From a virus, in UHGV virus genome UHGV-0213395: DNA of 43,313 bases; one strand, given 5' to 3'. Numbering within the stretch: the first letter of the stretch is position 1; every line of letters starts with the position of its first letter. Below the pieces are notes generated by a model. It saw only the letters and a list, made by a program, of their open reading frames with translations. It was not told where the DNA came from and ran no database searches. Shown here piece by piece: positions 4,576 to 42,928 of the stretch. The position numbers and the translations under genes are program-made.

Positions 4576-5088
4576 TTAACCCCGGTACACGTTAAACGAG
4601 AAACCATTGTTAAGACCGCCACACAATAACGGGCGTAAAGCGTCGTCAGCAGCGGTAATCGCGGTCGTAGCGCCACTGTTGCCATTGTTGAAGTAGGTCA
4701 CTGTTACCGCACCCTCGACACGCTCAGTCTGCACGGCGCGACCGTCTGAGTTAGCCCGGACTTCGGTGCCCTCGCCATATGTAGCGGCAGCGATTACCTG
4801 CGCAAGAATAACCTGTTTCGGGATTACATTGTTCGCGACAGGGAACCCGTTTAACGTAACGCCGGTGCGGGGGTATGCAAGAGACTGTTCGGCGGATACT
4901 CGACGACCGCACATCTGCGGTTCTGCAAGCCCTACATAAGTAGCACCGTTGCGTAAGGCCACCTCTGCTGCGGTATCGTCTTCCGGCAGCTCAAGGCCAT
5001 AATTAGCCGCTAACGCGCGGGCGTCAGCCAGACTAATGTAACTGTCGGCATTTGGGACGATCACCCCAGTTTCCACGATTAGCGGCAT
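4576..5088 (-). CDS. head-tail connector (gp6-like adaptor) candidate (170 aa)
   Basis: Position after capsid/decoration genes; N-terminal SYISLADARALAANYG resembles adaptor proteins. Weak call. Confidence 0.45.
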   Translation of the reverse strand: MPLIVETGVIVPNADSYISLADARALAANYGLELPEDDTAAEVALRNGATYVGLAEPQMCGRRVSAEQSLAYPRTGVTLNGFPVANNVIPKQVILAQVIAAATYGEGTEVRANSDGRAVQTERVEGAVTVTYFNNGNSGATTAITAADDALRPLLCGGLNNGFSFNVYRG

Positions 5089-5091
5089 AAA

Positions 5092-5271
5092 TTATTCCTC
5101 TGACTTACGGCGACGACGCTTAGTACCAACGCCGTTGTTGTGCGCTTCTTCATTGTCTGGTTGGGTTGCAACCAGTTCATCCGCTTCTACCACACCGCGA
5201 ACAGGCATCACCTGTCCGTCAACGATATCAACGTGGGTATACTTTTCGCGGATTACATAATTATCTGCCAT
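5092..5271 (-). CDS. small protein with basic C-terminal tail (59 aa)
   Basis: ATG at 5271 with AAGGAAAGG SD; ends ...GTKRRRRKSEE; below the 60-aa ORF-track threshold. Confidence 0.35.
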   Translation of the reverse strand: MADNYVIREKYTHVDIVDGQVMPVRGVVEADELVATQPDNEEAHNNGVGTKRRRRKSEE

Positions 5272-6029: not shown

Positions 6030-7079
6030 TTAAGCACCGACACCAGTTACCAGGAAGGCAATCGGTACGTGCTTGCGGTCAACCACACGGTTCCAGTTGG
6101 AGGCGTTCGCCAGGTCCTGCCAGGAAGCAGAACGTGCGACAGTCTTGGTGCCGTTACCGGTGATTACTGCGCTGGTGAAGCTGTAACCAAACGGATGTAG
6201 CAACCAGGTCTTACGGGTCCACAGGGTTTCAACGCCGCCGCCGTTGCCGCGGGACGCTTCGCGCTCGTATTCCAGCGGGTTGGACGGAGAACCTTCACCG
6301 TAACCGATAGCGCCGTTGCCGAAGATGATGGAGATGAACTTACGGGTCTGGCCAGTGCCGACTACGGTCATGCTGTCGTCAACAATCACGCGGTAGCCCT
6401 GGTAGGTGGCGAACATGGTGTTGTTGTCCGCGTCACGGATGAAGTCGATAAGCTGCTGCTTACGTGCCTGCGCATAAACGAAGCTATGCATCGCGATAGC
6501 CCCCAGCACTTCACCGCCGTTGCCCATCAGAGCATCGCCCATAGTCTGGGTAGCGTCGATGAACGCGCCCGCATCGAAGCCCAGAGTAGCAGACACGTCG
6601 ATAACCATGTCGTTCTGCTTGTGGTAAGCATCGGTAGCAGCTACGTTGTCGTTGTACAGACCGAGCGCGGTAGCAATCAGACGGCGTTGTGCCTGGCGCT
6701 GCCAGAAGTTATCCAGACGGGACGCTACGGATTGCAGCGGGTTCTGGCTGGTCAGTTCGACAGTCAAATCCGCCTGACCGAAACCTTCGTTCAGGTATGC
6801 AACGCGGGCCATCATCTCACCGGTCTGCACGTTACGCGGGGTGGCGATGTCCTGGTATACATCGTTCGAGTAGTTAGGCTCGATAGAGGTATCAATCGCT
6901 TTCCAGAACGGAATATTAGCGACGTTGGACGGGCCGCGGGCAATCTCGGCAGCGTACGGGGTCGGGGTCAGAATACCAGACTGGAAGAACGCGGTTTTTT
7001 CTACCGGGTCCTCGGTCATATAAGACGCCAGGACCGGGATGTTGCCAGTTACGATATCGCCGATAGTGGTAATTGCCAT
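6030..7079 (-). CDS. major capsid protein (349 aa)
   Basis: Follows scaffold gene by 2 nt; size and position typical of HK97-fold capsid; followed by a terminator-like hairpin. Confidence 0.65.
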   Translation of the reverse strand: MAITTIGDIVTGNIPVLASYMTEDPVEKTAFFQSGILTPTPYAAEIARGPSNVANIPFWKAIDTSIEPNYSNDVYQDIATPRNVQTGEMMARVAYLNEGFGQADLTVELTSQNPLQSVASRLDNFWQRQAQRRLIATALGLYNDNVAATDAYHKQNDMVIDVSATLGFDAGAFIDATQTMGDALMGNGGEVLGAIAMHSFVYAQARKQQLIDFIRDADNNTMFATYQGYRVIVDDSMTVVGTGQTRKFISIIFGNGAIGYGEGSPSNPLEYEREASRGNGGGVETLWTRKTWLLHPFGYSFTSAVITGNGTKTVARSASWQDLANASNWNRVVDRKHVPIAFLVTGVGA

Positions 7080-7081
7080 TA

Positions 7082-7783
7082 TTATTTCCTCAGGGCTTTA
7101 AGTTGCCGTTCAAATTCGGCAGGGTTCGATTTATACAGGGCTAAACGCTCTGCTTCACTCATGTCTTTAAACGCTGGTGCGGCCCCGCCGCCTTTGCTAC
7201 CGGAAGCCCCGCCGCCGGAAGCTGCATTTGCTTTGATCAAATGCGAAAACGCCTTGTGTTCGCGCAGGTATTTGCGGAACTGTTCCGGGTCAGTCGTGAT
7301 TACGTTACCGTCTGCACCAACAAACTTAGTAACCACATCATCGCCTTCGAACTCAGTCTTAACGAACGGCGCAAGAATGTCCACTGCTTCTGGGGTAATA
7401 AAGTCACCCGCGAAAGAGCCTAGCACCGCTTTACGTTCGCTGCCGAGGATACGCTCTGCCATTCTGGAGATGCGACCGTCTTTCTCGGCTAACACCGGGT
7501 CATACTGGCTACGAATCGTCTTTTCGAACTCATCCATCTTACCAGCGGCTTTTAACGCCTCCTGGTGCGCGCGCTGCCGTTCTTCTTCGGCCTCTTTTGC
7601 TTTGCGAGCGGCTTCTTTCTTCTCCGCCAACAATGCTTCCTGATTAGCCTTAAGCCCGGCAACTTCTTTCTCAATCAGCGCCTGAACTTCTTCAGCGGTG
7701 AACATTTTCGGCGCGTCACCGCCACCAGCTTTATCTTCTGCTCCAGCTTCTTCCTGGAACGGATAACGTAAAAAACGATTCAT
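7082..7783 (-). CDS. scaffolding protein (233 aa)
   Basis: Start moved to ATG at 7783 (AGGGGA SD). Ala/Glu/Lys-rich predicted helical protein immediately upstream of capsid gene. Confidence 0.55.
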   Translation of the reverse strand: MNRFLRYPFQEEAGAEDKAGGGDAPKMFTAEEVQALIEKEVAGLKANQEALLAEKKEAARKAKEAEEERQRAHQEALKAAGKMDEFEKTIRSQYDPVLAEKDGRISRMAERILGSERKAVLGSFAGDFITPEAVDILAPFVKTEFEGDDVVTKFVGADGNVITTDPEQFRKYLREHKAFSHLIKANAASGGGASGSKGGGAAPAFKDMSEAERLALYKSNPAEFERQLKALRK

Positions 7784-7865
7784 AGTCAGTATGTCCCCTG
7801 GACGTTGGAATCCGGGCCACCCGGATTTACATGTCAAGAATAAATTATTCCAACATGCAAGGCAA

Positions 7866-8129
7866 CTATTCCAGAATATTCCTCACGTAATCCTGCAACA
7901 TGAACACTTTCAGTCTCAGTTGCCGTACGCATTCAGCATTCTGAACGTCGACGGCCAAATCCTCATCAGCGTCGCTACTTGGCTGCGCCAGTTTGCACGG
8001 CGGCTGCATCATCGTCGTATCCGGGGATGGAATTGGCGTTGGCGACGGCGCGGGACTTGAGCTGCACGCGCTCAGGGTCAAAAGTGCACACGCTGCGACC
8101 AGGCGTTTTAATGTACTTAACGACTTCAC
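7866..8129 (-). CDS. o-spanin (Rz1-like outer-membrane lipoprotein, 87 aa)
   Basis: Signal peptide with lipobox LSAC, Pro-rich mature region; starts inside the i-spanin gene in another frame. Confidence 0.55.
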   Translation of the reverse strand: MKSLSTLKRLVAACALLTLSACSSSPAPSPTPIPSPDTTMMQPPCKLAQPSSDADEDLAVDVQNAECVRQLRLKVFMLQDYVRNILE

Positions 8130-8361
8130 GGGTAATCACCTCTGATTTCGTCTTGCCTTCGTTGTCAGCGGCGGCGGCCTTCGATTCATCCTGCTGCTGC
8201 CGTTGTGTTTTCTTCGCTAACTCAGCCTGTGCTTTCTGCTGTTGCTGCGAAACGAGATTAGCCCGGCCTTCGTTCCATCCGCTGCGATACTGGTAGATGC
8301 CGTGTGCGTAAACCAGGATGATGAAACATGCTCCTGCTACGACAGTTGCTTTAAGATTCAT
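7975..8361 (-). CDS. i-spanin (Rz-like, 128 aa)
   Basis: N-terminal transmembrane segment then charged coiled-coil region; overlapped arrangement with o-spanin ORF. Confidence 0.6.
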   Translation of the reverse strand: MNLKATVVAGACFIILVYAHGIYQYRSGWNEGRANLVSQQQQKAQAELAKKTQRQQQDESKAAAADNEGKTKSEVITREVVKYIKTPGRSVCTFDPERVQLKSRAVANANSIPGYDDDAAAVQTGAAK

Positions 8362-8680
8362 GTTTCCCCTTTCTCGATAAGTAAAGCCCCGCCATAAAGC
8401 GGGGCGCTAGTCCTTATCATTTAAACATAGAAACGGCGTAATCTCAGTAAACCAGTTACTTTTTACACAAGCAATAGAGTATGGCCCTTCCGAACGCGTC
8501 AGCGTAACTACACTCAGGACTTACGTCCCGCTCCGTTACCTGCCCGCGCCGCGGTCGCTTGTTCATACTTCACAAGCTCAGGTGGAGCTTATCATATTTT
8601 TAGTGAAAAGTCAACTATTCGAATAGTTTATTCCAACATTTACAATTCGGAGGAATAACTGGAATACGTAAATAAATAGT

Positions 8681-8709
8681 TTGCACACCCCAATATAATA
8701 GGGTACTAT
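8681..8709 (+). promoter_or_regulatory. sigma70-type promoter TTGCAC-N17-TACTAT (conserved early promoter, copy 1)
   Basis: Near-identical ~33 bp to copies at 42872-42900 (+), 20239-20267 (-) and 19065-19093 (-); AGGAGG SD and ATG at 8737 downstream. Confidence 0.55.
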
Positions 8710-8736
8710 TCAGTTAACTTAAACAGGAGGTGAAAA

Positions 8737-8940
8737 ATGTATGCAATTTGCGAAGTAGTTCAAGAGTTCGATGAAGAGTTCGACGGTGACTTGTGCCGGG
8801 TTAAAAAGGTTCTGCAGGTTTTCCCTGACGCAATGTCTGCTTACAAGGCATTAGATATATTTGAACCTGGAAGATACGGGGATTATGACACTGTTCTGAG
8901 GGTTGTCCATGAGCAGGATTTAAACACAAGATTCCGTTGA
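8737..8940 (+). CDS. small acidic protein (67 aa), moron-like antisense gene
   Basis: Own promoter and AGGAGG SD; terminator at 8946-8966; antisense to head operon; lower GC than flanks. Confidence 0.6.
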   Translation: MYAICEVVQEFDEEFDGDLCRVKKVLQVFPDAMSAYKALDIFEPGRYGDYDTVLRVVHEQDLNTRFR

Positions 8941-8945
8941 AAACT

Positions 8946-8966
8946 AAGGCCCCATAATGGGGCCTT
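8946..8966. terminator. bidirectional terminator (AAGGCCCC-ATAAT-GGGGCCTT)
   Basis: Perfect 8-bp stem followed by TTTAT; between convergent ORF ends at 8940 and 8970. Confidence 0.7.
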
Positions 8967-8969
8967 TTA

Positions 8970-9431
8970 TCATTCTGGCTTAGTAACCTTCGCCGCTTTG
9001 CTTACCGCCTCTACTCCATCGGCATCAGTAACTTTAACGAAGTATTCGCCGACCGCATTAACCGTCAGAGACAGAGCCTCCTCAGGCGCATTCACCACTT
9101 CCTTACCGTCTTTGTACCAGGTCAGAGAATACGGCGCTTTGCCTGCCTTAACCTCGACAGTGATGGTTGCGCTGCCGCCCGCCAGTTCAGCGTCCTGCGG
9201 TTGCGCAGAGAAATACACGTCGCCAGCGTCCGCCAGATACGGAATTTCATAAAGCATACCAGCGGCGGGCAACGCAATACCGGTTTTATCTGCAAACGGC
9301 ATATCATCTACCGGTGTACCGAGTACACTTTCGTCCTCAATAAATACCACGTTCTCGCCAGAGCCAGACACGCGGGCGTACTGGACTACGCGACGAGACG
9401 GTACGTCAGTTACTTTGAAAAAGCCCATCAT
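8970..9431 (-). CDS. Ig-like domain protein (153 aa)
   Basis: C-terminal APYSLTWYKDGKEV...GEYFVKVTDADG Ig-like signature, paralogous to the domain in 5308..5658. Confidence 0.55.
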   Translation of the reverse strand: MMGFFKVTDVPSRRVVQYARVSGSGENVVFIEDESVLGTPVDDMPFADKTGIALPAAGMLYEIPYLADAGDVYFSAQPQDAELAGGSATITVEVKAGKAPYSLTWYKDGKEVVNAPEEALSLTVNAVGEYFVKVTDADGVEAVSKAAKVTKPE

Positions 9432-10507
9432 TATTCCCCTTTCAGATAATCAGCAACACGTTTATCGAGTTCCGCCATCTGCTTAAGCGTGAGCGGATTC
9501 CCGAAACCATCTACAGATATTACGCGAAACTCTTCCGGCGATATACCGCTGTTACGGAAAATCTTACCTCGCACCGGGCCGAGCGCCTGGTCCTGAAACC
9601 ACGCCGGTTGTTGTTTAAGGAACTCGTAGTAAGTGGTGTCTGCGCTTACCTGAGTGCCACCTTCCGCGCCTTTAGCCGCGCGTTTTGCGCCTTTATCGAG
9701 GAAGTCGAACTCGGAACTGATTACCGGAGCCGTGCACGACCGGCAGTTCGGATGGGCTGGGGGCATCGGCCCCTTACCAATTTCCCACGTCATCCCGTCT
9801 CTGACCCTGCAAATTGTACTGGTGCGGCTGTCAAGCGTTGACACCCACTCGTACTTCTCGATGATGTCGTCGTTCTGGCGGTACGTCTCGTTACGGGCCT
9901 CGTTGGATACGTGGGACAGCGCGGTGCGGATTACCGTAGTCGCGTTACGTTCTGAGATGTCGGCTAGTCCACCAGCGCCAACAACATTCTTAACAATCTG
10001 CCGTGTGGTTTGACCTTGCACAAAGCCCATCTTAACTCCAGTTACAAGACGTGCTACTTCCGTTTCGCCCCATCCAGACATCAGCTTGGTGAAATCAACG
10101 GGCTTGTCGCTCAATGATAATGGTTGAAACTCGGCAGCGGCCCATACCTGCTCAGCGGTAGGCGTAACAAATTCCGCGTTTACGTTGGCGGTCAGTGTCT
10201 TTACGTTCCACTCCGCCTCATACGCCGCCAGTTCCTTAAGGTCTTCTGTCAGCTTTGTTTGCCAGTCACCCGTAAGCCCCGTCAGAGCTTCTTCAAGGTC
10301 ACGTAACAGTTTATTCAGCCGTGCGGTGCTGCGGCCGTCGTCGCCGAATAGCAGCACCTGCCGTTTGATTTCGTCCCGCATTTCCTGAATGAATGGTGCG
10401 AGGTCTTTTACTTCACCGGATGCGGCGCGTTGCAGCCAAATCTGGTGGCTGATTAGTGATGTCAGTAAGCTCATAGATAAACCCTGTGGCGCTAAAGTTA
10501 ATAGCAT
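9431..10507 (-). CDS. head morphogenesis (minor head) protein candidate (358 aa)
   Basis: Gene directly after portal, the usual place for SPP1 gp7/Mu F-type proteins. Positional call. Confidence 0.55.
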   Translation of the reverse strand: MLLTLAPQGLSMSLLTSLISHQIWLQRAASGEVKDLAPFIQEMRDEIKRQVLLFGDDGRSTARLNKLLRDLEEALTGLTGDWQTKLTEDLKELAAYEAEWNVKTLTANVNAEFVTPTAEQVWAAAEFQPLSLSDKPVDFTKLMSGWGETEVARLVTGVKMGFVQGQTTRQIVKNVVGAGGLADISERNATTVIRTALSHVSNEARNETYRQNDDIIEKYEWVSTLDSRTSTICRVRDGMTWEIGKGPMPPAHPNCRSCTAPVISSEFDFLDKGAKRAAKGAEGGTQVSADTTYYEFLKQQPAWFQDQALGPVRGKIFRNSGISPEEFRVISVDGFGNPLTLKQMAELDKRVADYLKGE

Positions 10508-13808: not shown

Positions 13809-13874
13809 AGAATCCCCTTGCATATGCGTCTGACCATCAGAGCGCACCAGACGCGCCCTACGCGTCTAAAGGGA

Positions 13875-13903
13875 TTATATAAGGGGATTGGGCGGGATGT
13901 ACA
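13875..13903 (-). promoter_or_regulatory. candidate promoter for the structural operon (TGTACA-N17-TATAAT on minus strand)
   Basis: Consensus -10 TATAAT (rc of 13875-13880) with 17-nt spacer to a -35-like hexamer; lies between the early terminator and terS; palindrome AGACGCG-CCCTA-CGCGTCT (13849-13867) in the leader. Confidence 0.35.
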
Positions 13904-13907
13904 GAAA

Positions 13908-13925
13908 AGCCCTCCGTAGAGGGCT
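13908..13925 (-). terminator. terminator of leftward early transcription unit
   Basis: AGCCCTC-CGTA-GAGGGCT stem followed on the minus strand by TTTCTGT. Confidence 0.5.
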
Positions 13926-13938
13926 TGTGGGTTGGTTA

Positions 13939-14091
13939 TTCTGTTATATCGCCGCCGTCTACCAGTGCGATTGGTATTCTCACTTCACCGTTGAATGTTT
14001 CGGCATACCAGAACTTTTCACACTGCGTTACGCTGAAAACATCGAGTTCTGACGTAGCCCCTGTTTTCCAGTAGATAGTTAACTTTTTCAT
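13939..14091 (-). CDS. small hypothetical protein (50 aa)
   Basis: ATGA overlap with upstream gene; MKKLTIYWKTGATSELDVFSVTQCEKFW...; last ORF before terminator. Confidence 0.3.
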
Positions 14092-14348
14092 TCTCCACTC
14101 TCCTCTTTAGCAATACGTTGCTCAGTTTTAGTGATACCACGGCGCGTGAATAACACCGGGCTAGTCTTAACGTGCGTCATCAGACGATTGTTATAAATTA
14201 CGTGGCGCTCACAATCAACGTCTTTACTGTACTTAGCAATCGTCATTTCGTTGATACCGGTTTGTCGGCATGTCTCCGCCATCGTACCAAATTCTTTAAT
14301 CAGGTTAGGAATGCTGGTAATCATCCTAAGAAATTCCTCGTTGTCCAC
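14088..14348 (-). CDS. putative HTH DNA-binding protein (86 aa)
   Basis: HTH-like segment MAETCRQTGINEMTIAKY; last sizeable gene of the early unit, just upstream of the terminase genes. Confidence 0.5.
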   Translation of the reverse strand: MDNEEFLRMITSIPNLIKEFGTMAETCRQTGINEMTIAKYSKDVDCERHVIYNNRLMTHVKTSPVLFTRRGITKTEQRIAKEESGE

Positions 14349-14776: not shown

Positions 14777-15056
14777 GACAACTCAGCATGTCAGTAATCT
14801 CCGTCTCAAGCCGTTTTCCTAACGCCGATTTAGTGCAGTGTTCGGCCCACTCCCCGGATTGCAACAATCCAATCATATTTTCTATGTCAGACGCGATGGC
14901 TTGTAGCTCTTTAAACGCCTCTAGAAGTTCTTTATACGCCTCCAGTTGAAACTCACCGTTAATTGACAGTTGCCCGCCTAACGTCTGTTTCTCCGACTCA
15001 AGCACCATAATACGGCGCTCGAGCGATGCAATTGTGATTTTAGGCATTGGTGTCAC
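14748..15056 (-). CDS. hypothetical coiled-coil early protein (102 aa)
   Basis: Intact ORF; heptad-like Leu/Glu-rich composition. Confidence 0.5.
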   Translation of the reverse strand: MTPMPKITIASLERRIMVLESEKQTLGGQLSINGEFQLEAYKELLEAFKELQAIASDIENMIGLLQSGEWAEHCTKSALGKRLETEITDMLSCLVEAPDEHA

Positions 15057-15225
15057 CTTTGTTCAGGTTGAAGCGGTTAATCAGTTCGCGGCGCGTCTCA
15101 TAAAGCGACTCCACCATTTGCTCGGCTACCGCGATTTTATTATTCAGGACGCACATCACGTGGCTAATGTCTACGCCGCCGTTAACGGCCTCTACCATCA
15201 TCTTTTCATATTCACGGTCAGTCAT
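15040..15225 (-). CDS. hypothetical early protein (61 aa)
   Basis: Intact ORF in operon, overlapping neighbours. Confidence 0.45.
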   Translation of the reverse strand: MTDREYEKMMVEAVNGGVDISHVMCVLNNKIAVAEQMVESLYETRRELINRFNLNKGDTNA

Positions 15226-15998: not shown

Positions 15999-16484
15999 TC
16001 AACCTTTCACCGCGCGCCCGATAGCCTCTGCCTCTTGCCACGGTTTACCGTCGAACAGCGCCAGACGACCGGCGGTACGACGACGCAGTCCAAGTAACGG
16101 TCTGCCGTTCTGGTTGATGAACAGTGTCAGCTTAGCCCGCAGCGTTGCAATATCACCAGAACGCAGTGCCTTACCCGTGCCGGTAGTAGCAGCAATCACA
16201 CCAGCACCTGCGTTGTATACCAGGTCGCACACTGCATCGAACTGTGCCTGTGTCAATGAATGGTGTGCTGCTGCGTCAACCGCAGCTACGGCCTTAGCCA
16301 TATCACGATTCAGTAACAGGAGGCCTTGTCCCGGGGTGATGGTCTTGCCTGGCGTTACGTCTGGCCCATAATGACCGTACCCAATAGTCAGGTACTTCTC
16401 ATTTGGCGTAGCACGATACGCAGTTCCGCGGAATCCCTCGAACGCGGCGGTGAATTTGATGCCATTGTTGCTAATGTTTCTCAT
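15999..16484 (-). CDS. endolysin, phage lysozyme (GH24/T4-lysozyme-like, 161 aa)
   Basis: N-terminal FEGFRGTAYRATPNEKYLTIGYGHYG lysozyme signature; adjacent to holin genes. Confidence 0.8.
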   Translation of the reverse strand: MRNISNNGIKFTAAFEGFRGTAYRATPNEKYLTIGYGHYGPDVTPGKTITPGQGLLLLNRDMAKAVAAVDAAAHHSLTQAQFDAVCDLVYNAGAGVIAATTGTGKALRSGDIATLRAKLTLFINQNGRPLLGLRRRTAGRLALFDGKPWQEAEAIGRAVKG

Positions 16485-16574
16485 AAAGCACCTTCCCGTA
16501 ATTTATGGTTCGCGAAAACTCCGGTATCGGGGTCGTGGTGTAAAACCTCGCGCAGCTTATCTGCGGTAAGTCCA

Positions 16575-16847
16575 TTATCTGAAATATTTCGAGACACGCT
16601 TATGTCCTCCGTATGACAGCCACGCCTGACGAATCTGGCGCAGCGCAACTAATGTGATTAATGTCTCAGGCAGCGTCGGAGACATGCTGCCCTGTAACAG
16701 GTGGATACATCCTGCGGCGCAGACAATAGCAGTCAGGATATAGAGCACCCGGCCAAATAGCCCGTCGTCAACGCTGGGATGATACACATTAAACAGCGAT
16801 GTGCCTCCGATTGCCAGCATACCGCAGAACCAGAATAACTCATTCAT
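16575..16847 (-). CDS. second holin / antiholin candidate (2 predicted TM segments, 90 aa)
   Basis: Start moved to internal ATG (MNELFWFCGMLAIGG...); two hydrophobic stretches; lies between holin and endolysin. Confidence 0.45.
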   Translation of the reverse strand: MNELFWFCGMLAIGGTSLFNVYHPSVDDGLFGRVLYILTAIVCAAGCIHLLQGSMSPTLPETLITLVALRQIRQAWLSYGGHKRVSKYFR

Positions 16848-17148
16848 CCGGGCCTCCTCGACGTGCGATGTATTCTCCGGCGACGATACCGGACAGACGG
16901 GAATAGATAGGCATCCAGAGAATAGCGATAATGAAGCCCAGGCCTGCGATTTCACGGTCGCCCGTGATTCCAAACCATTGAGCTGCGAGAGGTGCGCCAA
17001 ATACGGCGCAAGTGAAGCCAGTTGCAATAAAGCAGAAGCCGTCGATAGGGCCGGAAATAGCGGACTTATGTTGCCTTAGTCCGATTACCCCTCCGGCTAG
17101 TGCGGCAGCGAGAAGCCACCCCGTCACTGTTTCAGTAAATTTATCCAA
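16840..17148 (-). CDS. holin candidate (3 predicted TM segments, 102 aa)
   Basis: Three hydrophobic segments and charged C-terminus; apparent TTG start 7 nt after GGAGG; first gene of lysis cassette. Confidence 0.55.
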   Translation of the reverse strand: MDKFTETVTGWLLAAALAGGVIGLRQHKSAISGPIDGFCFIATGFTCAVFGAPLAAQWFGITGDREIAGLGFIIAILWMPIYSRLSGIVAGEYIARRGGPDE

Positions 17149-17223: not shown

Positions 17224-17517
17224 TTATTTATGACGCCAGATGTATTGTCGTCTCTGCGGTTTAGTCGGAATATCATCGTACCCCAGCGATTTCCAGTAAT
17301 TAAATAGCCGGTTCGCGATAGCTGCGCGTTCCTTTGTTTTAAACTCTCCTAGATTCACGGCCTTTCCGTTCTGGAATCCACAGGCGCGGATAGCTTTACG
17401 CCGTTCTTGTATCTCTGGGTACAGCGCGTTACGGCGGCGCTTGTGTATACGTGTCTTCGCTCTCGGTGACAGCGGCGCAAGGCCGCTTCGTTTCAGGATG
17501 TCAGTTGCTAACGACAT
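17224..17517 (-). CDS. hypothetical basic protein (97 aa)
   Basis: Start moved to ATG at 17517, 1 nt past the stop of the upstream paralog gene. Confidence 0.45.
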   Translation of the reverse strand: MSLATDILKRSGLAPLSPRAKTRIHKRRRNALYPEIQERRKAIRACGFQNGKAVNLGEFKTKERAAIANRLFNYWKSLGYDDIPTKPQRRQYIWRHK

Positions 17518-17786
17518 CACTCCACCCCTTCCACATGTGTAACTGACCCACAGTTCGCGCACTCGACGTAATCAGGGTACTGGTCTTTGTATTTCTGTAG
17601 CTCGGCGTTTACTTCTGCCAGTCTCGACACAAGCCCTTCTATTTCCTTGTCGTCGTCGGCTAGACGTTCCTGGTAATAGTCGTCCAGTTCCTTATAGCTG
17701 TCGTACTCTACATAATCGCCGTATGCGTACTCAGCCATCTCAGGCTCTGGCAGGCCCCACGCTTTTACCTCATATCTCTGTACCAT
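17517..17786 (-). CDS. small protein, tandem paralog B (89 aa)
   Basis: Starts MVQRY, ends ELQKYKDQYPDYVECANCGSVTHVEGVE; C-terminus identical to neighbour A. Confidence 0.5.
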   Translation of the reverse strand: MVQRYEVKAWGLPEPEMAEYAYGDYVEYDSYKELDDYYQERLADDDKEIEGLVSRLAEVNAELQKYKDQYPDYVECANCGSVTHVEGVE

Positions 17787-17989
17787 TACTCCACCCCCTC
17801 CACATGTGTAACCGACCCGCAGTTCGCGCACTCGACGTAATCCGGGAACTGGTCCTTGTATTTCTGTAACTCGGCTTCAACTTCCAACAGCTTTAGGTCA
17901 AGATTCTGGTAGTCCTCAAACTTAACCCACTTCCCGTGGCGGTCAATGAAATGGTTGTCGGACCCATACTTAGAATATCTCTGTACCAT
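17786..17989 (-). CDS. small protein, tandem paralog A (67 aa)
   Basis: Start moved to internal ATG (MVQRYSKYG...); ends ELQKYKDQFPDYVECANCGSVTHVEGVE. Confidence 0.45.
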   Translation of the reverse strand: MVQRYSKYGSDNHFIDRHGKWVKFEDYQNLDLKLLEVEAELQKYKDQFPDYVECANCGSVTHVEGVE

Positions 17990-17990
17990 G

Positions 17991-18212
17991 TTATTTCTCC
18001 TGTTTTCCAAGTCGCTTAGGTGAGCAGATAGCGCGTACCTCTGAATCGTTGGGCTTGTCACCCTGAAACAGAAAGTGCGCGTTCTCTGCGGCGCGTGCAG
18101 CTGACTGGCACGCCTCCATCGAGTAAAACGTTTCTGATGCCGCGAGTTGCATCTGGCCTGCGGACAGTACCCAGATAAAGAGGATGCTGGTCATTCGGTT
18201 ATCCATCCACAT
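17991..18212 (-). CDS. small protein with N-terminal hydrophobic/signal-like segment (73 aa)
   Basis: MTSILFIWVLSAGQMQLAA hydrophobic stretch near the N-terminus; overlaps neighbours. Confidence 0.4.
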   Translation of the reverse strand: MWMDNRMTSILFIWVLSAGQMQLAASETFYSMEACQSAARAAENAHFLFQGDKPNDSEVRAICSPKRLGKQEK

Positions 18213-19033: not shown

Positions 19034-19064
19034 ATTCTGTCTCTCCTCTCGTTTGTGTAAATGA

Positions 19065-19093
19065 ATAGTAGCCTATTCTATATTAGTGTGCAA
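19065..19093 (-). promoter_or_regulatory. conserved early promoter, copy 3 (TTGCAC-N17-TACTAT, minus strand)
   Basis: rc reads CTTGCACACTAATATAGAATAGGCTACTATTCA; same architecture as the other copies. Confidence 0.5.
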
Positions 19094-20204: not shown

Positions 20205-20238
20205 AACCCTCACTCCTCTGTCTCGTTTCGATAAGTGA

Positions 20239-20267
20239 ATAGTATCCTATTATGTTGGGGTGTGCAA
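20239..20267 (-). promoter_or_regulatory. conserved early promoter, copy 4 (TTGCAC-N17-TACTAT, minus strand)
   Basis: rc reads CTTGCACACCCCAACATAATAGGATACTATTCA, differing at about 2 positions from the plus-strand copies. Confidence 0.55.
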
Positions 20268-23594: not shown

Positions 23595-23613
23595 AAGGGG
23601 CTTTAAGCCCCTT
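23595..23613 (-). terminator. terminator hairpin at end of XRE regulator gene
   Basis: AAGGGGC-TTTAA-GCCCCTT; U-run on the minus strand; the regulator stop codon lies in the loop. Confidence 0.5.
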
Positions 23614-23818
23614 CACCTAACGCCAGCCACTTGGCGTCTACTTCCAGAACTTCCGCCAGTTTGAACAGCGTTGCCGGGCGGACGTCCTGAGTTACTCCAA
23701 GTGCCAGTTGGTTAATCGCGCCCTGGGAAACGCCGGTCAGGGCCGCCAAACGGCGCTGGGAGATGCCGAGTTCTTTGCGGCGTTGTTCTACACGGATGCC
23801 TAGTTCAGATGGTTGCAT
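23603..23818 (-). CDS. Cro/CI-type (XRE family) HTH transcriptional regulator (71 aa)
   Basis: GISQRRLAALTGVSQGAINQLALG HTH_XRE signature; AAGGAG SD; antisense and monocistronic within the replication module. Confidence 0.75.
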   Translation of the reverse strand: MQPSELGIRVEQRRKELGISQRRLAALTGVSQGAINQLALGVTQDVRPATLFKLAEVLEVDAKWLALGEGA

Positions 23819-23882
23819 GTCAATTACTCCTTAGTCAGTTGATATGTGAATAGTACCATATTAATTATTTTAGAAAAGCCCA

Positions 23883-23911
23883 TTGACATGTGAATAGTTC
23901 GCTATTATAGT
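23883..23911 (+). promoter_or_regulatory. promoter TTGACA-N17-TATAGT with AATAG-N4-CTATT operator-like palindrome in the spacer
   Basis: Consensus -35, 17-nt spacer, good -10; near-identical architecture at 26566-26594; drives the gene at 23943. Confidence 0.55.
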
Positions 23912-23942
23912 TAGCCCATACCAAACGAGAGGAGAGAAACAA

Positions 23943-42871: not shown

Positions 42872-42900
42872 TTGCACACCCCAATATAATAGGGTACTAT
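42872..42900 (+). promoter_or_regulatory. conserved early promoter, copy 2 (TTGCAC-N17-TACTAT)
   Basis: Identical over ~33 bp to the copy at 8681-8709; GAGG SD and ATG 42929 downstream. Confidence 0.55.
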
Positions 42901-42928
42901 TCACATGTAACTTACTGAGGAAATAATT

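What the first reader, a model, noticed from the sequence alone, without database searches (positions are those of the whole stretch)
7846..8639. Overlapped spanin pair displaced into the head operon and flanked by a 12-bp direct repeat
The i-spanin (TM plus coiled coil) and overlapping o-spanin (lipobox LSAC, Pro-rich) lie between the Ig-like head gene and scaffold, about 8 kb from the holin-holin-endolysin cassette at 15999-17148. The exact 12-mer TTATTCCAACAT occurs on both sides (7846-7857 and 8628-8639). On the minus strand each copy reads ATGTTGGAATAA a short distance upstream of a TTGAC(A/T) hexamer, so the repeats may be activator sites of late promoters. Alternatively they are scars of insertion of the spanin cassette.
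Basis: seen in the sequence. Interest (0 to 1): 0.6.

Follow-up and report, generated by a model that had tools for sequence, protein, structure and literature searches.

The report
Shared operator at two phage promoters
The repeated 12-mer is the visible tip of a conserved protein-binding motif at two internal promoters that bracket the spanin (outer-membrane lysis) genes of a Kagunavirus, and the position of those genes in the head operon is normal and already published for this phage subfamily.

Summary
The window is a Kagunavirus (Guernseyvirinae), 99.7% identical to Escherichia phage Bas74. The overlapped spanin pair and both 12-mer copies exist; the first copy is at 7845-7856, one base off.

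The spanins lie between the Hoc-like gene and the scaffold gene in every lineage examined (Kagunavirus, Jerseyvirus, Cornellvirus, phiEap-2, Hafnia TS33, Serratia Otaku and Smarc3). This is annotated and published, so they are not "displaced".

An exact 12-mer repeat means little on its own: the window holds 91 such pairs. What is conserved is a 15-bp palindrome, GGAATAAWTTATTCC, with GGAATA half-sites about 10 and 21 bp from it. Half-site clusters occur only around the spanins: just these two in the window and in Jersey, with extra arrays in phiEap-2 and SP-031.

- **Copy B** lies upstream of a conserved promoter (TTGACT-17-TGnTAAGCT). That promoter is followed by a roughly 200-nt structured non-coding leader and then the spanins.
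- **Copy A** lies inside a second conserved promoter (TTGCCT-17-TATTCT), followed by a covarying hairpin and the scaffold gene.

Serratia relatives keep the spanins, promoter A and the hairpin but have no arrays, which rules out insertion scars.

The binding protein is unknown. A NinH (Fis-like) helix-turn-helix protein co-occurs with the arrays. Verdict: an ordinary regulatory architecture with some new detail.

The parts
7975..8361 (-). i-spanin gene (128 aa, N-terminal transmembrane segment)
   Evidence: ORF and translation. PHROG 2536 Rz-like spanin, E=4.8e-57. Annotated as a spanin in Bas74, Jersey and others.
7866..8129 (-). o-spanin gene (87 aa, lipobox LSAC, Pro-rich). It overlaps the i-spanin gene by 155 nt. 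Its last five codons plus the stop carry two GGAATA half-sites.
   Evidence: PHROG 5672 and 1267 Rz-like spanin. Half-sites at 7867-7872 and 7877-7882.
7845..7856 (-). 12-mer copy A (ATGTTGGAATAA on the minus strand). It lies at about -26 to -15 in the spacer of promoter P_A.
7838..7851 (.). Operator palindrome A, GGAATAATTTATTC. It overlaps the -10 of P_A and is invariant in the K, J, C and C2 types.
7867..7882 (.). Two auxiliary GGAATA half-sites of array A, 10 and 21 bp from their neighbours, inside the end of the o-spanin gene.
   Evidence: Jersey has five half-sites here.
7837..7865 (-). Predicted sigma-70 promoter P_A: -35 TTGCCT (7865-7860), 17-bp spacer, -10 TATTCT (7842-7837). Predicted start near 7830.
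   Evidence: Both hexamers and the 17-bp spacing are kept in all 11 aligned lineage variants. These include Serratia Otaku (TTGCCC-17-TATATT), whose spacer is unrelated, and Hafnia TS33 (TTGCTT-17-TATTCT). No start site has been mapped.
7809..7827 (-). Conserved GC-rich hairpin between P_A and the scaffold ribosome-binding site. It has no U-tract.
   Evidence: 96% of cells paired; two pairs have compensatory changes; 0 of 500 shuffles reach the observed score. Hafnia has a hairpin of entirely different sequence at the same place.
7082..7783 (-). Head scaffolding gene, the first gene downstream of P_A.
8628..8639 (-). 12-mer copy B, at about -60 to -49 of promoter P_B.
8615..8634 (.). Operator palindrome B, GGAATAAACTATTC (8621-8634), overlapping a K-type-specific perfect palindrome CTATTCGAATAG (8615-8626) that abuts the -35.
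8652..8666 (.). Two auxiliary half-sites of array B (GGAATAACTGGAATA on the plus strand). The outer edge at 8666 is also where similarity to many relatives stops, so it is the border of the variable gene slot.
8586..8614 (-). Predicted promoter P_B: -35 TTGACT (8614-8609), 17-bp spacer, extended -10 TGaTAAGCT (8594-8586). Predicted start near 8579.
   Evidence: Conserved in register in Kagunavirus, Jerseyvirus (TTGACT or TAGACT-17-TGtTACGCT), Cornellvirus (TGGATT-17-TGaTAACCT) and Hafnia (TTTACT-17-TGaTAACCT).
8377..8579 (-). Structured non-coding leader of about 200 nt. It has a 5' hairpin (8557-8577), a GC-rich multi-stem core ending in the conserved CGGAAGGG (8485-8492), and a terminator-like hairpin (8386-8405).
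   Evidence: 95-99% identical in 170 phage records. Folding z-scores are -2.2, -4.3 and -3.0 for the K, J and C types. Compensatory changes are visible by eye in the sequences. No Rfam family matches. The annotated 36-aa ORF is broken by 1-nt indels in L013, L023 and L029.
8681..8966 (+). Opposite-strand variable-slot gene (8737-8940, 67 aa), with an early-type 32-bp promoter repeat (8681-8712) and a bidirectional terminator (8946-8966).
14091..14324 (-). NinH-like helix-turn-helix gene, a candidate for the protein that binds the arrays. This is unproven.
   Evidence: Pfam Phage_NinH E=6e-5, below the cut-off. Close homologues carry PF06322. It is found in Jersey, SP-031, phiEap-2 and Hafnia but not in Otaku, even at E<=10.

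Best explanation
The two 12-mers belong to two copies of an operator-like array. Each array has a 15-bp palindrome (consensus GGAATAAWTTATTCC) plus two or more GGAATA half-sites about 10 and 21 bp away. The half-sites are helically phased, so they lie on one face of the DNA.

Each array sits at one of two conserved sigma-70-type promoters that restart transcription inside the head-gene cluster, after the terminator that follows the Hoc-like gene.

- **P_B** (start near 8579) makes a roughly 200-nt structured leader ending in a hairpin, and by read-through the spanin genes. Spanins are needed in small amounts.
- **P_A** (start near 7830) overlaps the end of the o-spanin gene. Its transcript begins with a stable hairpin and encodes scaffold and major capsid protein, which are needed in large amounts.

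A sequence-specific, probably dimeric and cooperatively binding protein is inferred to occupy both arrays and so couple the two promoters. At P_A the palindrome covers -21 to -8, implying occlusion or repression. At P_B it covers -55 to -42, implying an upstream activator or a bending or looping position.

The best candidate for the protein is the phage's NinH-like (Fis-like) helix-turn-helix protein.

Shown: the sequences, their conservation, the promoter hexamers and spacing, and hairpin covariation. Inferred: protein binding, the identity of the binder, the direction of regulation, and the transcript starts.
For: - **Clustering.** GGAATA/TATTCC is not enriched genome-wide (25 seen, 21 expected), but 6 of the 25 lie in two 40-bp clusters at 7846-7882 and 8629-8666. 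No other cluster exists in the window or in the whole Jersey genome.
- **Conservation of the core.** The palindrome and half-sites are invariant, while the 5-6 nt beside them vary freely among 40 distinct site-B sequences.
- **Array geometry.** It is kept even when the array is inverted relative to the promoter in Hafnia TS33. In phiEap-2 site A, the auxiliary half-sites are replaced by a second palindrome.
- **P_B.** The hexamers, the TG extension and the 17-bp spacing are conserved in four lineages.
- **P_A.** The hexamers and spacing are conserved in all lineages, including Serratia phages whose spacer is unrelated.
- **Hairpin.** Covariation is documented.
- **Length of the shared word.** The exact word shared by sites A and B is 12 nt in 20 K-type loci, 7 nt in Jerseyvirus and 9-14 nt in Cornellvirus-like phages. 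It always contains GGAATA.
- **Candidate binder.** The NinH-like gene is present in every array-bearing lineage tested and absent from Otaku. Lambda NinH is a Fis-like homodimer that bends DNA and prefers a 15-bp palindromic G-N13-C site (PMC7166090). The perfect operator is 15 bp and reads G-N13-C.
Against: - There is no transcript or binding data for any Guernseyvirinae phage in the searched literature.
- Both promoters are weak matches: 8/12 and 8/12 plus TG. The tool's consensus scan did not call either.
- The arrays sit at different distances from the two starts, shifted by about 35 bp, so one simple regulatory logic does not fit both.
- The NinH link rests on what is effectively one loss or gain event. 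Two other small genes share the same presence/absence profile.
- The NinH-like structure model is of low confidence (pLDDT 67) and gave only generic helix-turn-helix matches.
- The operator has A-T where the Fis consensus, recalled from memory, has Y-R at positions -4/-3.
- Half-sites inside the o-spanin C-terminal codons could be kept by protein-level constraint.
Confidence: 0.55

Rival explanations
1. The arrays are module-boundary or recombination sequences. They are short conserved stretches at which related phages exchange the neighbouring variable gene slot and the leader and spanin modules. They may or may not also serve in regulation.
For: - Similarity between many relatives and the window stops exactly at 8666, the outer edge of array B.
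- The slot beyond it carries different cargo in different phages: methyltransferase, RusA, sliding clamp, PAPS reductase.
- In phiEap-2 two arrays flank the opposite-strand cargo gene.
- VSt10 and L034 combine a K-type site B and leader with a J-type site A.
Against: - This reading does not explain the palindromic, helically phased organisation or the invariant register with promoter hexamers.
- It does not explain array A, where no variable slot exists in most lineages.
- Conserved regulatory DNA is expected to become a recombination junction anyway.
Confidence: 0.12
2. The repeats act in RNA. At site A the GGA-containing repeats lie on the spanin-scaffold transcript. They could bind an RNA-binding protein such as CsrA, or pair with the scaffold ribosome-binding region to control translation.
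For: - In the K type, 7847-7862 can pair with 7796-7811, which includes part of the scaffold Shine-Dalgarno sequence, at 15 of 16 positions counting G-U pairs (inverted repeat I5; MFE structure).
- Three GGA motifs are spaced 10 and 21 nt apart.
Against: - The long helix is not kept in the Jersey type (sequence inspection).
- Array B lies upstream of its promoter and beyond the terminator of the preceding operon, so it is not expected to be transcribed on the sense strand.
- The shared feature of A and B is a DNA palindrome.
- The folding z-score of the site A region is only -2.2.
Confidence: 0.08
3. The exact 12-mer identity is largely chance on top of a shorter functional core, or entirely chance.
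For: - The window has 91 exact 12-mer repeat pairs.
- The five flanking bases ATGTT vary at site B in some K-type phages (ATGCT, ATCTT, ACGTT) without matching change at A.
- Jersey shares only 7 nt between the two sites.
Against: - The core itself cannot be chance. It is conserved at both sites in five lineages, and clusters of three or more half-sites occur nowhere else in two whole genomes.
- Only 2 of 100 shuffles gave two or more near-matches to this word.
Confidence: 0.05
4. The repeats are target-site duplications or scars left when the spanin cassette was inserted into the head operon.
For: They are direct repeats on either side of the two genes.
Against: - Copy B is 267 nt from the i-spanin start, with a conserved promoter and leader in between.
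- The spanins occupy this locus in all Guernseyvirinae lineages examined.
- Serratia phages have the cassette without repeats.
- In SP-031 an extra gene separates the o-spanin from array A, and the array stays with the scaffold promoter.
- Shewanella phage 3/49 lacks spanins here and shows no single-copy empty site.
Confidence: 0.02
5. The arrays are iterons of a replication origin or terminase (pac) recognition sites. P_B and its non-coding leader would then serve as an origin-activating or primer transcript.
For: - The repeats are phased hexamers next to a promoter that makes a GC-rich non-coding RNA.
- From general knowledge, the P1 and SPP1 pac sites and the lambda and T4 origins have comparable repeat or promoter features.
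Against: - Cumulative GC skew turns at 20-21 kb, at the divergent early region of lowest G+C. It shows no inflection near 8 kb.
- The two arrays are 780 bp apart.
- Serratia relatives with the same replication and packaging genes lack the arrays.
Confidence: 0.04

Closest known systems
Two-component spanins (lambda Rz/Rz1 type) encoded away from the holin-endolysin genes
   Same: The pair comprises an inner-membrane subunit with an N-terminal transmembrane segment and an outer-membrane lipoprotein subunit, encoded in overlapping frames. PHROG Rz-like families match. Separation from the holin and endolysin genes in this phage group is published (PMC6763661, PMC9825357).
   Different: The genes are partly overlapped rather than fully embedded as in lambda. 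They lie inside the head-gene cluster, directly downstream of an internal promoter and leader.
Multi-site operators of small phage or nucleoid DNA-bending regulators (Fis upstream sites at rrnB P1; phi29 p4 at promoters A2b/A2c/A3; lambda NinH) - the Fis and phi29 comparisons are from general knowledge
   Same: The sites are palindromes of about 15 bp with helically phased neighbours. One regulator is placed upstream of one promoter and over the core of another. The perfect operator reads G-N13-C, as reported for lambda NinH (PMC7166090).
   Different: No binding has been shown. The half-site GGAATA is not the Fis or NinH consensus in its inner positions. The arrays occur only around the spanins (two sites in most lineages, three in phiEap-2 and SP-031), not genome-wide.
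Lambda late operon: PR' promoter, 194-nt 6S leader RNA, tR' terminator, then lysis and head genes under Q antitermination (general knowledge)
   Same: The order is the same: promoter, roughly 200-nt non-coding leader, terminator-like hairpin, Rz-like genes, head genes.
   Different: The terminal hairpin has a poor U-tract in Jersey and none in Cornellvirus or Hafnia. Serratia phages have a shorter leader without it. No Q-like protein was found among the small proteins scanned, though that scan was not exhaustive. Holin and endolysin are elsewhere.
5'-terminal stem-loops that stabilise E. coli mRNAs (the ompA 5' hairpin; general knowledge)
   Same: Covarying GC-rich hairpins lie within a few nucleotides of both predicted transcript starts (7809-7827 and 8557-8577).
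   Different: The transcript starts are unmapped. The hairpin at 7809-7827 is annotated as a terminator in the Ent1 record, although it lacks a U-tract.

Membership tests
Two-component spanin (Rz/Rz1-like) | Profile match to known i-spanin and o-spanin families | tested here: met
   PHROG 2536 at E=4.8e-57; PHROG 5672 at E=2.4e-30 and 1267 at E=3e-21.
Two-component spanin (Rz/Rz1-like) | i-spanin with an N-terminal transmembrane segment; o-spanin with a lipoprotein signal and lipobox Cys; genes overlapping in different frames | tested here: met
   Translations: MNLKATVVAGACFIILVYAHGIY... and MKSLSTLKRLVAACALLTLSAC.... The overlap is 7975-8129.
Two-component spanin (Rz/Rz1-like) | Required for outer-membrane disruption at lysis | not testable with these tools
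   Needs spanin-null phage and a lysis assay with divalent cations.
Sigma-70 promoter (P_B, 8586-8614) | -35 and -10 hexamers 17±1 bp apart, conserved in register among relatives | tested here: met
   TTGACT-17-TGaTAAGCT. The homologous hexamers and the TG are kept in four lineages. The simple consensus scan did not call it.
Sigma-70 promoter (P_A, 7837-7865) | -35 and -10 hexamers 17±1 bp apart, conserved in register among relatives | tested here: met
   TTGCCT-17-TATTCT. T-A-T...T of the -10 and TTGC of the -35 are invariant in 11 variants, including Otaku with an unrelated spacer, and in Hafnia.
Sigma-70 promoter (both) | Mapped transcription start | not testable with these tools
   No transcript data were found.
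   The downstream hexamers are CGGATT, CCGGAT and GGATTC. The -35 position reads TTGTTA in Jersey, TTATAT in Hafnia and TTTCGT in Otaku.
Target-site duplication / insertion scar | Repeats at the exact borders of the inserted segment, absent or single-copy where the segment is absent, always present where it is present | tested here: not met
   Copy B is 267 nt from the cassette. Serratia phages have the cassette without repeats. No empty site was found in Shewanella phage 3/49.
Fis/NinH-type binding site | 15-bp dyad with G at -7 and C at +7 and an A/T-rich centre | tested here: inconclusive
   The perfect copies in phiEap-2 and Hafnia read GGAATAAWTTATTCC, which is G-N13-C. The window's copies keep only one G/C end. 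The inner positions differ from the Fis consensus as recalled from memory. The NinH motif is taken from PMC7166090.
Fis/NinH-type binding site | Bound by the NinH-like protein | not testable with these tools
   Only co-occurrence is available.
Lambda-type late antitermination unit (PR'-6S-tR'/Q) | Intrinsic terminator at the end of the leader, conserved, plus a Q-family antiterminator | tested here: not met
   A terminator-like site is found only in the K type. The U-tract is weak in Jersey and absent in Cornellvirus and Hafnia; the hairpin is absent in Otaku. No Q family was hit among 20 small proteins.
Intrinsic terminator (hairpin 7809-7827, as annotated in phage Ent1) | GC-rich stem followed by a U-tract | tested here: not met
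   The stem is followed by CCAACG. The terminator scan did not list it.
Any Rfam RNA family (leader 8377-8579) | Covariance-model match | tested here: not met
   There are no hits at gathering thresholds. The best E-values are above 1.

The most novel reading that the evidence does not exclude
A phage Fis-like protein (NinH family), whose role in lambda is still unknown, is here a dedicated late-gene regulator. It binds phased GGAATA arrays on both sides of the spanin genes. It bends or loops the 780-bp segment so that spanin, scaffold and capsid expression are switched together. The promoter it controls also makes a 200-nt structured leader RNA of a family not yet described.
Probability: 0.12. 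Interest if true: 0.55.

Novelty: new member of a known kind. Interest (0 to 1): 0.3.

Why it matters
Nothing is known experimentally about how Guernseyvirinae time their late genes, even though hundreds of these phages (Jersey-like and K1-type) have been sequenced for therapy and biocontrol.

The analysis gives testable coordinates for two internal promoters, a shared operator, a candidate regulator and a conserved leader RNA. It also explains how low-abundance spanins and high-abundance capsid proteins can share one gene cluster.

If the NinH-like protein binds the arrays, the NinH family would gain its first physiological function. If it does not, this remains a routine case of promoter-associated repeats in a well-sampled phage group.

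Tried and rejected
- **Rfam and tRNA.** Rfam at gathering thresholds and at E<=10, and a tRNA scan, found nothing for the leader.
- **E. coli genomes.** The leader has no similarity in 5,426 E. coli genomes, so it is not a host sRNA or a prophage element.
- **Leader consensus fold.** RNAalifold on a MAFFT alignment of the leader core gave no usable consensus because the three types do not align without structural information. I did not build a covariance model.
- **HTH_17 "excisionase" protein as binder.** It is absent from the Enterobacter and Hafnia phages that carry the arrays, and probably from Cornellvirus.
- **Cro/C1-type 71-aa protein as binder.** It is present in all lineages, including array-free Otaku, and its recognition helix does not separate the groups. 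It is neither excluded nor favoured.
- **NinH-like protein structure.** pLDDT was 67. Foldseek against the PDB gave no match with E<1, only generic helix-turn-helix overlaps. A profile search of PDB sequences found nothing.
- **Host-factor consensus sites.** Comparison with ArgR, IclR, RcsAB, IHF, Lrp and Fis sites was from memory only. None fitted convincingly, and I make no claim.
- **Third near-palindrome.** The one at the Ad1 start codon (5084-5098) is conserved in Jersey, but it sits in a ribosome-binding context with no neighbouring half-sites, so I did not count it as an operator.
- **Origin of replication.** GC skew gives no support.
- **Literature.** Searches found no transcript mapping or operator description for these phages.
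Full report
**Identity of the window.**
- A 2.5-kb stretch around the finding (7000-9500) is 99.7-99.8% identical to Escherichia phages vB-Eco-KMB35 and SonjaBuckley_Bas74. It matches 483 phage records of the subfamily Guernseyvirinae, genera Kagunavirus, Jerseyvirus and relatives.
- In Bas74 the genes under the finding are annotated as two Rz-like spanins between a Hoc-like head decoration gene and the head scaffolding gene.

**The observation.**
There are no other copies at one mismatch or fewer.
- The i-spanin (7975-8361) and o-spanin (7866-8129) are on the minus strand and overlap. They show the expected transmembrane segment and lipobox and match PHROG spanin families.
- Holin, holin and endolysin lie at about 16.0-17.1 kb.
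- An exact 12-mer repeat is not remarkable in itself: the window holds 91 such pairs against about 56 expected. The repeat extends to 19 nt with two mismatches.

**The spanin position is not a displacement.** The same order (portal, head morphogenesis, Hoc-like, spanins, scaffold, capsid) is found in seven lineages:
- Jersey and Ent1;
- VSt10;
- Cornellvirus SP-031;
- phiEap-2;
- Hafnia TS33;
- Serratia Otaku and Smarc3.

The separation of spanins from holin and endolysin is stated in the Schulenberg genome announcement (PMC6763661) and in the fBC-Eco01 paper (PMC9825357). The more distant Shewanella phage 3/49 has no spanins there. It has a 324-bp promoter-rich spacer ahead of the scaffold gene instead.

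**What the 12-mer belongs to.** Read on the minus strand, the transcribed strand here, the two sites are as follows.
- Site A: GGAATA-N4-GGAATA-N15-GGAATAATTTATTC.
- Site B: TATTCC-N3-TATTCC-N17-GGAATAAACTATTC.

GGAATA/TATTCC is not enriched overall (25 against 21 expected). However, six of the 25 copies form these two clusters, and no other cluster exists in the window or in the whole Jersey genome.

The core palindrome is present at both sites in Jerseyvirus, Cornellvirus, phiEap-2 and Hafnia TS33. phiEap-2 and Hafnia carry perfect 15-bp copies of GGAATAAWTTATTCC.

Among 40 distinct site-B sequences the half-sites are invariant, while the bases immediately beside them vary. The array can be inverted relative to the promoter (Hafnia). 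Its auxiliary half-sites can be replaced by a second palindrome (phiEap-2 site A).

The longest exact word shared by A and B is 12 nt only in Kagunavirus-type phages. It is 7 nt in Jersey and 9-14 nt in Cornellvirus-like phages. The 12-mer is therefore a lineage-specific extension of a shorter conserved core.

**Promoter at site B.**
- Six base pairs downstream of the palindrome lies TTGACT, then 17 bp, then TGaTAAGCT.
- The homologous positions read TTGACT or TAGACT-17-TGtTACGCT in Jersey-type phages, TGGATT or TGGACT-17-TGaTAACCT in Cornellvirus-type phages, and TTTACT-17-TGaTAACCT in Hafnia.
- The predicted start is near 8579, not 8609.

**The leader downstream of P_B.**
- It is a stretch of about 200 nt that is 95-99% identical in 170 phage records, although the flanking genes are only 80-90% identical in most of them.
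- It begins with a hairpin and has a GC-rich core ending in CGGAAGGG. In the K type it ends in a terminator-like hairpin just before the i-spanin ribosome-binding site.
- Folding z-scores are -2.2 (K), -4.3 (Jersey), -3.0 (Cornellvirus) and -1.3 (Hafnia).
- Compensatory changes in several stems are visible by eye in the sequences.
- The 36-aa ORF annotated in Bas74 is frameshifted by 1-nt indels in three relatives, so the region is most likely non-coding.
- No Rfam family matches, and there is no similarity in E. coli genomes.

**Promoter at site A.**
- Aligning 11 lineage variants shows instead TTGCCT (7865-7860), exactly 17 bp, then TATTCT (7842-7837). TTGC and T-A-T...T are invariant.
- Serratia Otaku keeps TTGCCC-17-TATATT although its spacer is unrelated and it has no GGAATA motif. 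Hafnia has TTGCTT-17-TATTCT.
- The predicted start, near 7830, is followed at once by a GC-rich hairpin (7809-7827). That hairpin is 96% paired across lineages, has two covarying pairs, and is replaced by a hairpin of different sequence in Hafnia.
- The hairpin has no U-tract, so the "terminator" annotation in the Ent1 record is unlikely to be right.
- At A the 12-mer lies in the promoter spacer and the palindrome overlaps the -10. At B the palindrome lies at about -55 to -42.

**Insertion scars are excluded.**
- Copy B is 267 nt from the cassette.
- The arrays follow the promoters rather than the spanin borders. In SP-031 an extra gene lies between the o-spanin and array A.
- Otaku and Smarc3 have spanins, P_A, the hairpin and a homologous short leader, but no arrays anywhere in the genome.

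**Who binds?**
- Among the small proteins scanned, three have helix-turn-helix motifs.
- An HTH_17 protein is restricted to Kagunavirus and Jerseyvirus.
- A Cro/C1-type 71-aa protein is present in all lineages, including Otaku.
- The third is a NinH-like protein (14091-14324), encoded just upstream of the terminase promoter.
- A presence/absence screen of all window ORFs against five whole genomes found three plausible genes present in all array-bearing lineages and absent from Otaku: the NinH-like protein, a 61-aa protein and a DUF2737 protein. The other ORFs returned by the screen overlap real genes on other frames and were judged spurious.
- A profile search of Otaku's six-frame translation found no NinH-like sequence even at E<=10.
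- No Serratia phage appears among the organisms listed for the 518 records with a tblastn match.
- Lambda NinH is a Fis-like homodimer that bends DNA and prefers a palindromic 15-bp G-N13-C site (PMC7166090). The perfect operator has that length and those end bases.
- This is a lead, not a demonstration. It rests on one clade-level absence, the Pfam score of the window protein is below the cut-off, and the structure model was uninformative.

**Model.**
- The head cluster is cut by a bidirectional terminator after the Hoc-like gene (8946-8966).
- P_B restarts transcription through a structured leader into the spanins.
- P_A, overlapping the end of the o-spanin gene, adds transcripts with a 5' hairpin for scaffold and capsid.
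- A common operator array at both promoters would let one DNA-binding protein couple them.
- Whether that protein activates, represses or loops cannot be decided from sequence.

**Other readings considered.**
- RNA-level function of the repeats: the K-type long helix is not conserved.
- Module-boundary recombination sequences: supported by junctions at 8666 and by arrays flanking the cargo gene in phiEap-2. This is compatible with a regulatory role.
- Origin or pac site: no support from GC skew.

**Verdict.** The spanin placement is already known. The repeat is part of a conserved but uncharacterised operator at two predicted promoters. This is useful annotation-level detail with a testable candidate regulator, not a new kind of system.

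Noticed in passing
8681-8712 (+), 42872-42903 (+), 20236-20267 (-); partial copies at 19062-19093 (-), 23847-23878 (-), 23891-23922 (-): A 32-bp promoter-like repeat, TTGCACACCCCAATATAATAGGGTACTATTC, lies 25-35 nt ahead of small early-region genes. It has a perfect -10 but no -35 at normal spacing; the conserved TTGCAC is only 8 bp upstream. An AATAG-N4-CTATT dyad overlaps the -10 and +1. It equals the PHIRE consensus reported for fBC-Eco01 (PMC9825357), where it was attributed to a phage RNA polymerase that these phages do not appear to encode.
   Followed up: partly
8377-8579 (-): A conserved structured leader RNA of about 200 nt with no Rfam family. It is more conserved than the neighbouring protein genes (95-99% in 170 records). 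Three sequence types (Kagunavirus, Jersey, Cornellvirus) share a 5' hairpin and the motif CGGAAGGG. K-type leaders also occur in phages classed as Jerseyvirus (VSt10), so the module is exchanged between genera.
   Followed up: partly
8737-8940 (+), terminator 8946-8966: A 67-aa gene of unknown function on the opposite strand, inside the head cluster, occupies a variable slot. Relatives carry a methyltransferase, a RusA resolvase, a sliding clamp, a PAPS reductase or nothing at this position.
   Followed up: partly
5084-5098; Jersey L065:10854-10868: A third near-perfect copy of the palindrome (GGAATAATTTATGCC on the minus strand) spans the ribosome-binding site and start codon of the head-tail adaptor gene. 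It is conserved in Jersey, and no half-sites accompany it.
   Followed up: partly
L071 (SP-031):26068-26125; L070 (phiEap-2):11500-11537: There are extra operator arrays in relatives. One is embedded in the signal-peptide codons of the SP-031 o-spanin. One lies just before the terminator that precedes the phiEap-2 cargo gene, so two arrays flank that gene. phiEap-2 has 43 half-sites against 20 expected.
   Followed up: partly
14091-14348 (-) and 15043-15225 (-): The NinH-like protein and a 61-aa protein match the C-terminal and N-terminal parts of one PHROG family (phrog_268). They may therefore be fused in other phages and work together.
   Followed up: no
13871-13926 (-): An intrinsic terminator (13907-13926) is followed by CCCAATCCCCTTATATAATCCC ahead of the small terminase gene. 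This promoter resembles the early-type repeat in its -10 and C-rich upstream part. It has no GGAATA array.
   Followed up: no
17517-18061 (-): Two adjacent small genes are paralogues: 53% identity over 68 aa, sharing a C-terminal CxxC-containing tail. The junction sequence is repeated at 269-nt spacing, and a third copy of the junction lies at 17224-17562.
   Followed up: partly
7796-7811 with 7847-7862 (-): In Kagunavirus-type phages the 12-mer region can pair at 15 of 16 positions (counting G-U pairs) with the region covering the scaffold Shine-Dalgarno sequence. This would compete with the conserved hairpin. The pairing is not conserved in Jersey-type phages.
   Followed up: partly
23606-23818 (-): A Cro/C1-type HTH_3 protein (71 aa) lies next to the helicase-primase gene. 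It is driven by two tandem early-type promoters and is conserved across the whole subfamily. No gene of this length is annotated at the corresponding place in the Bas74 record.
   Followed up: partly
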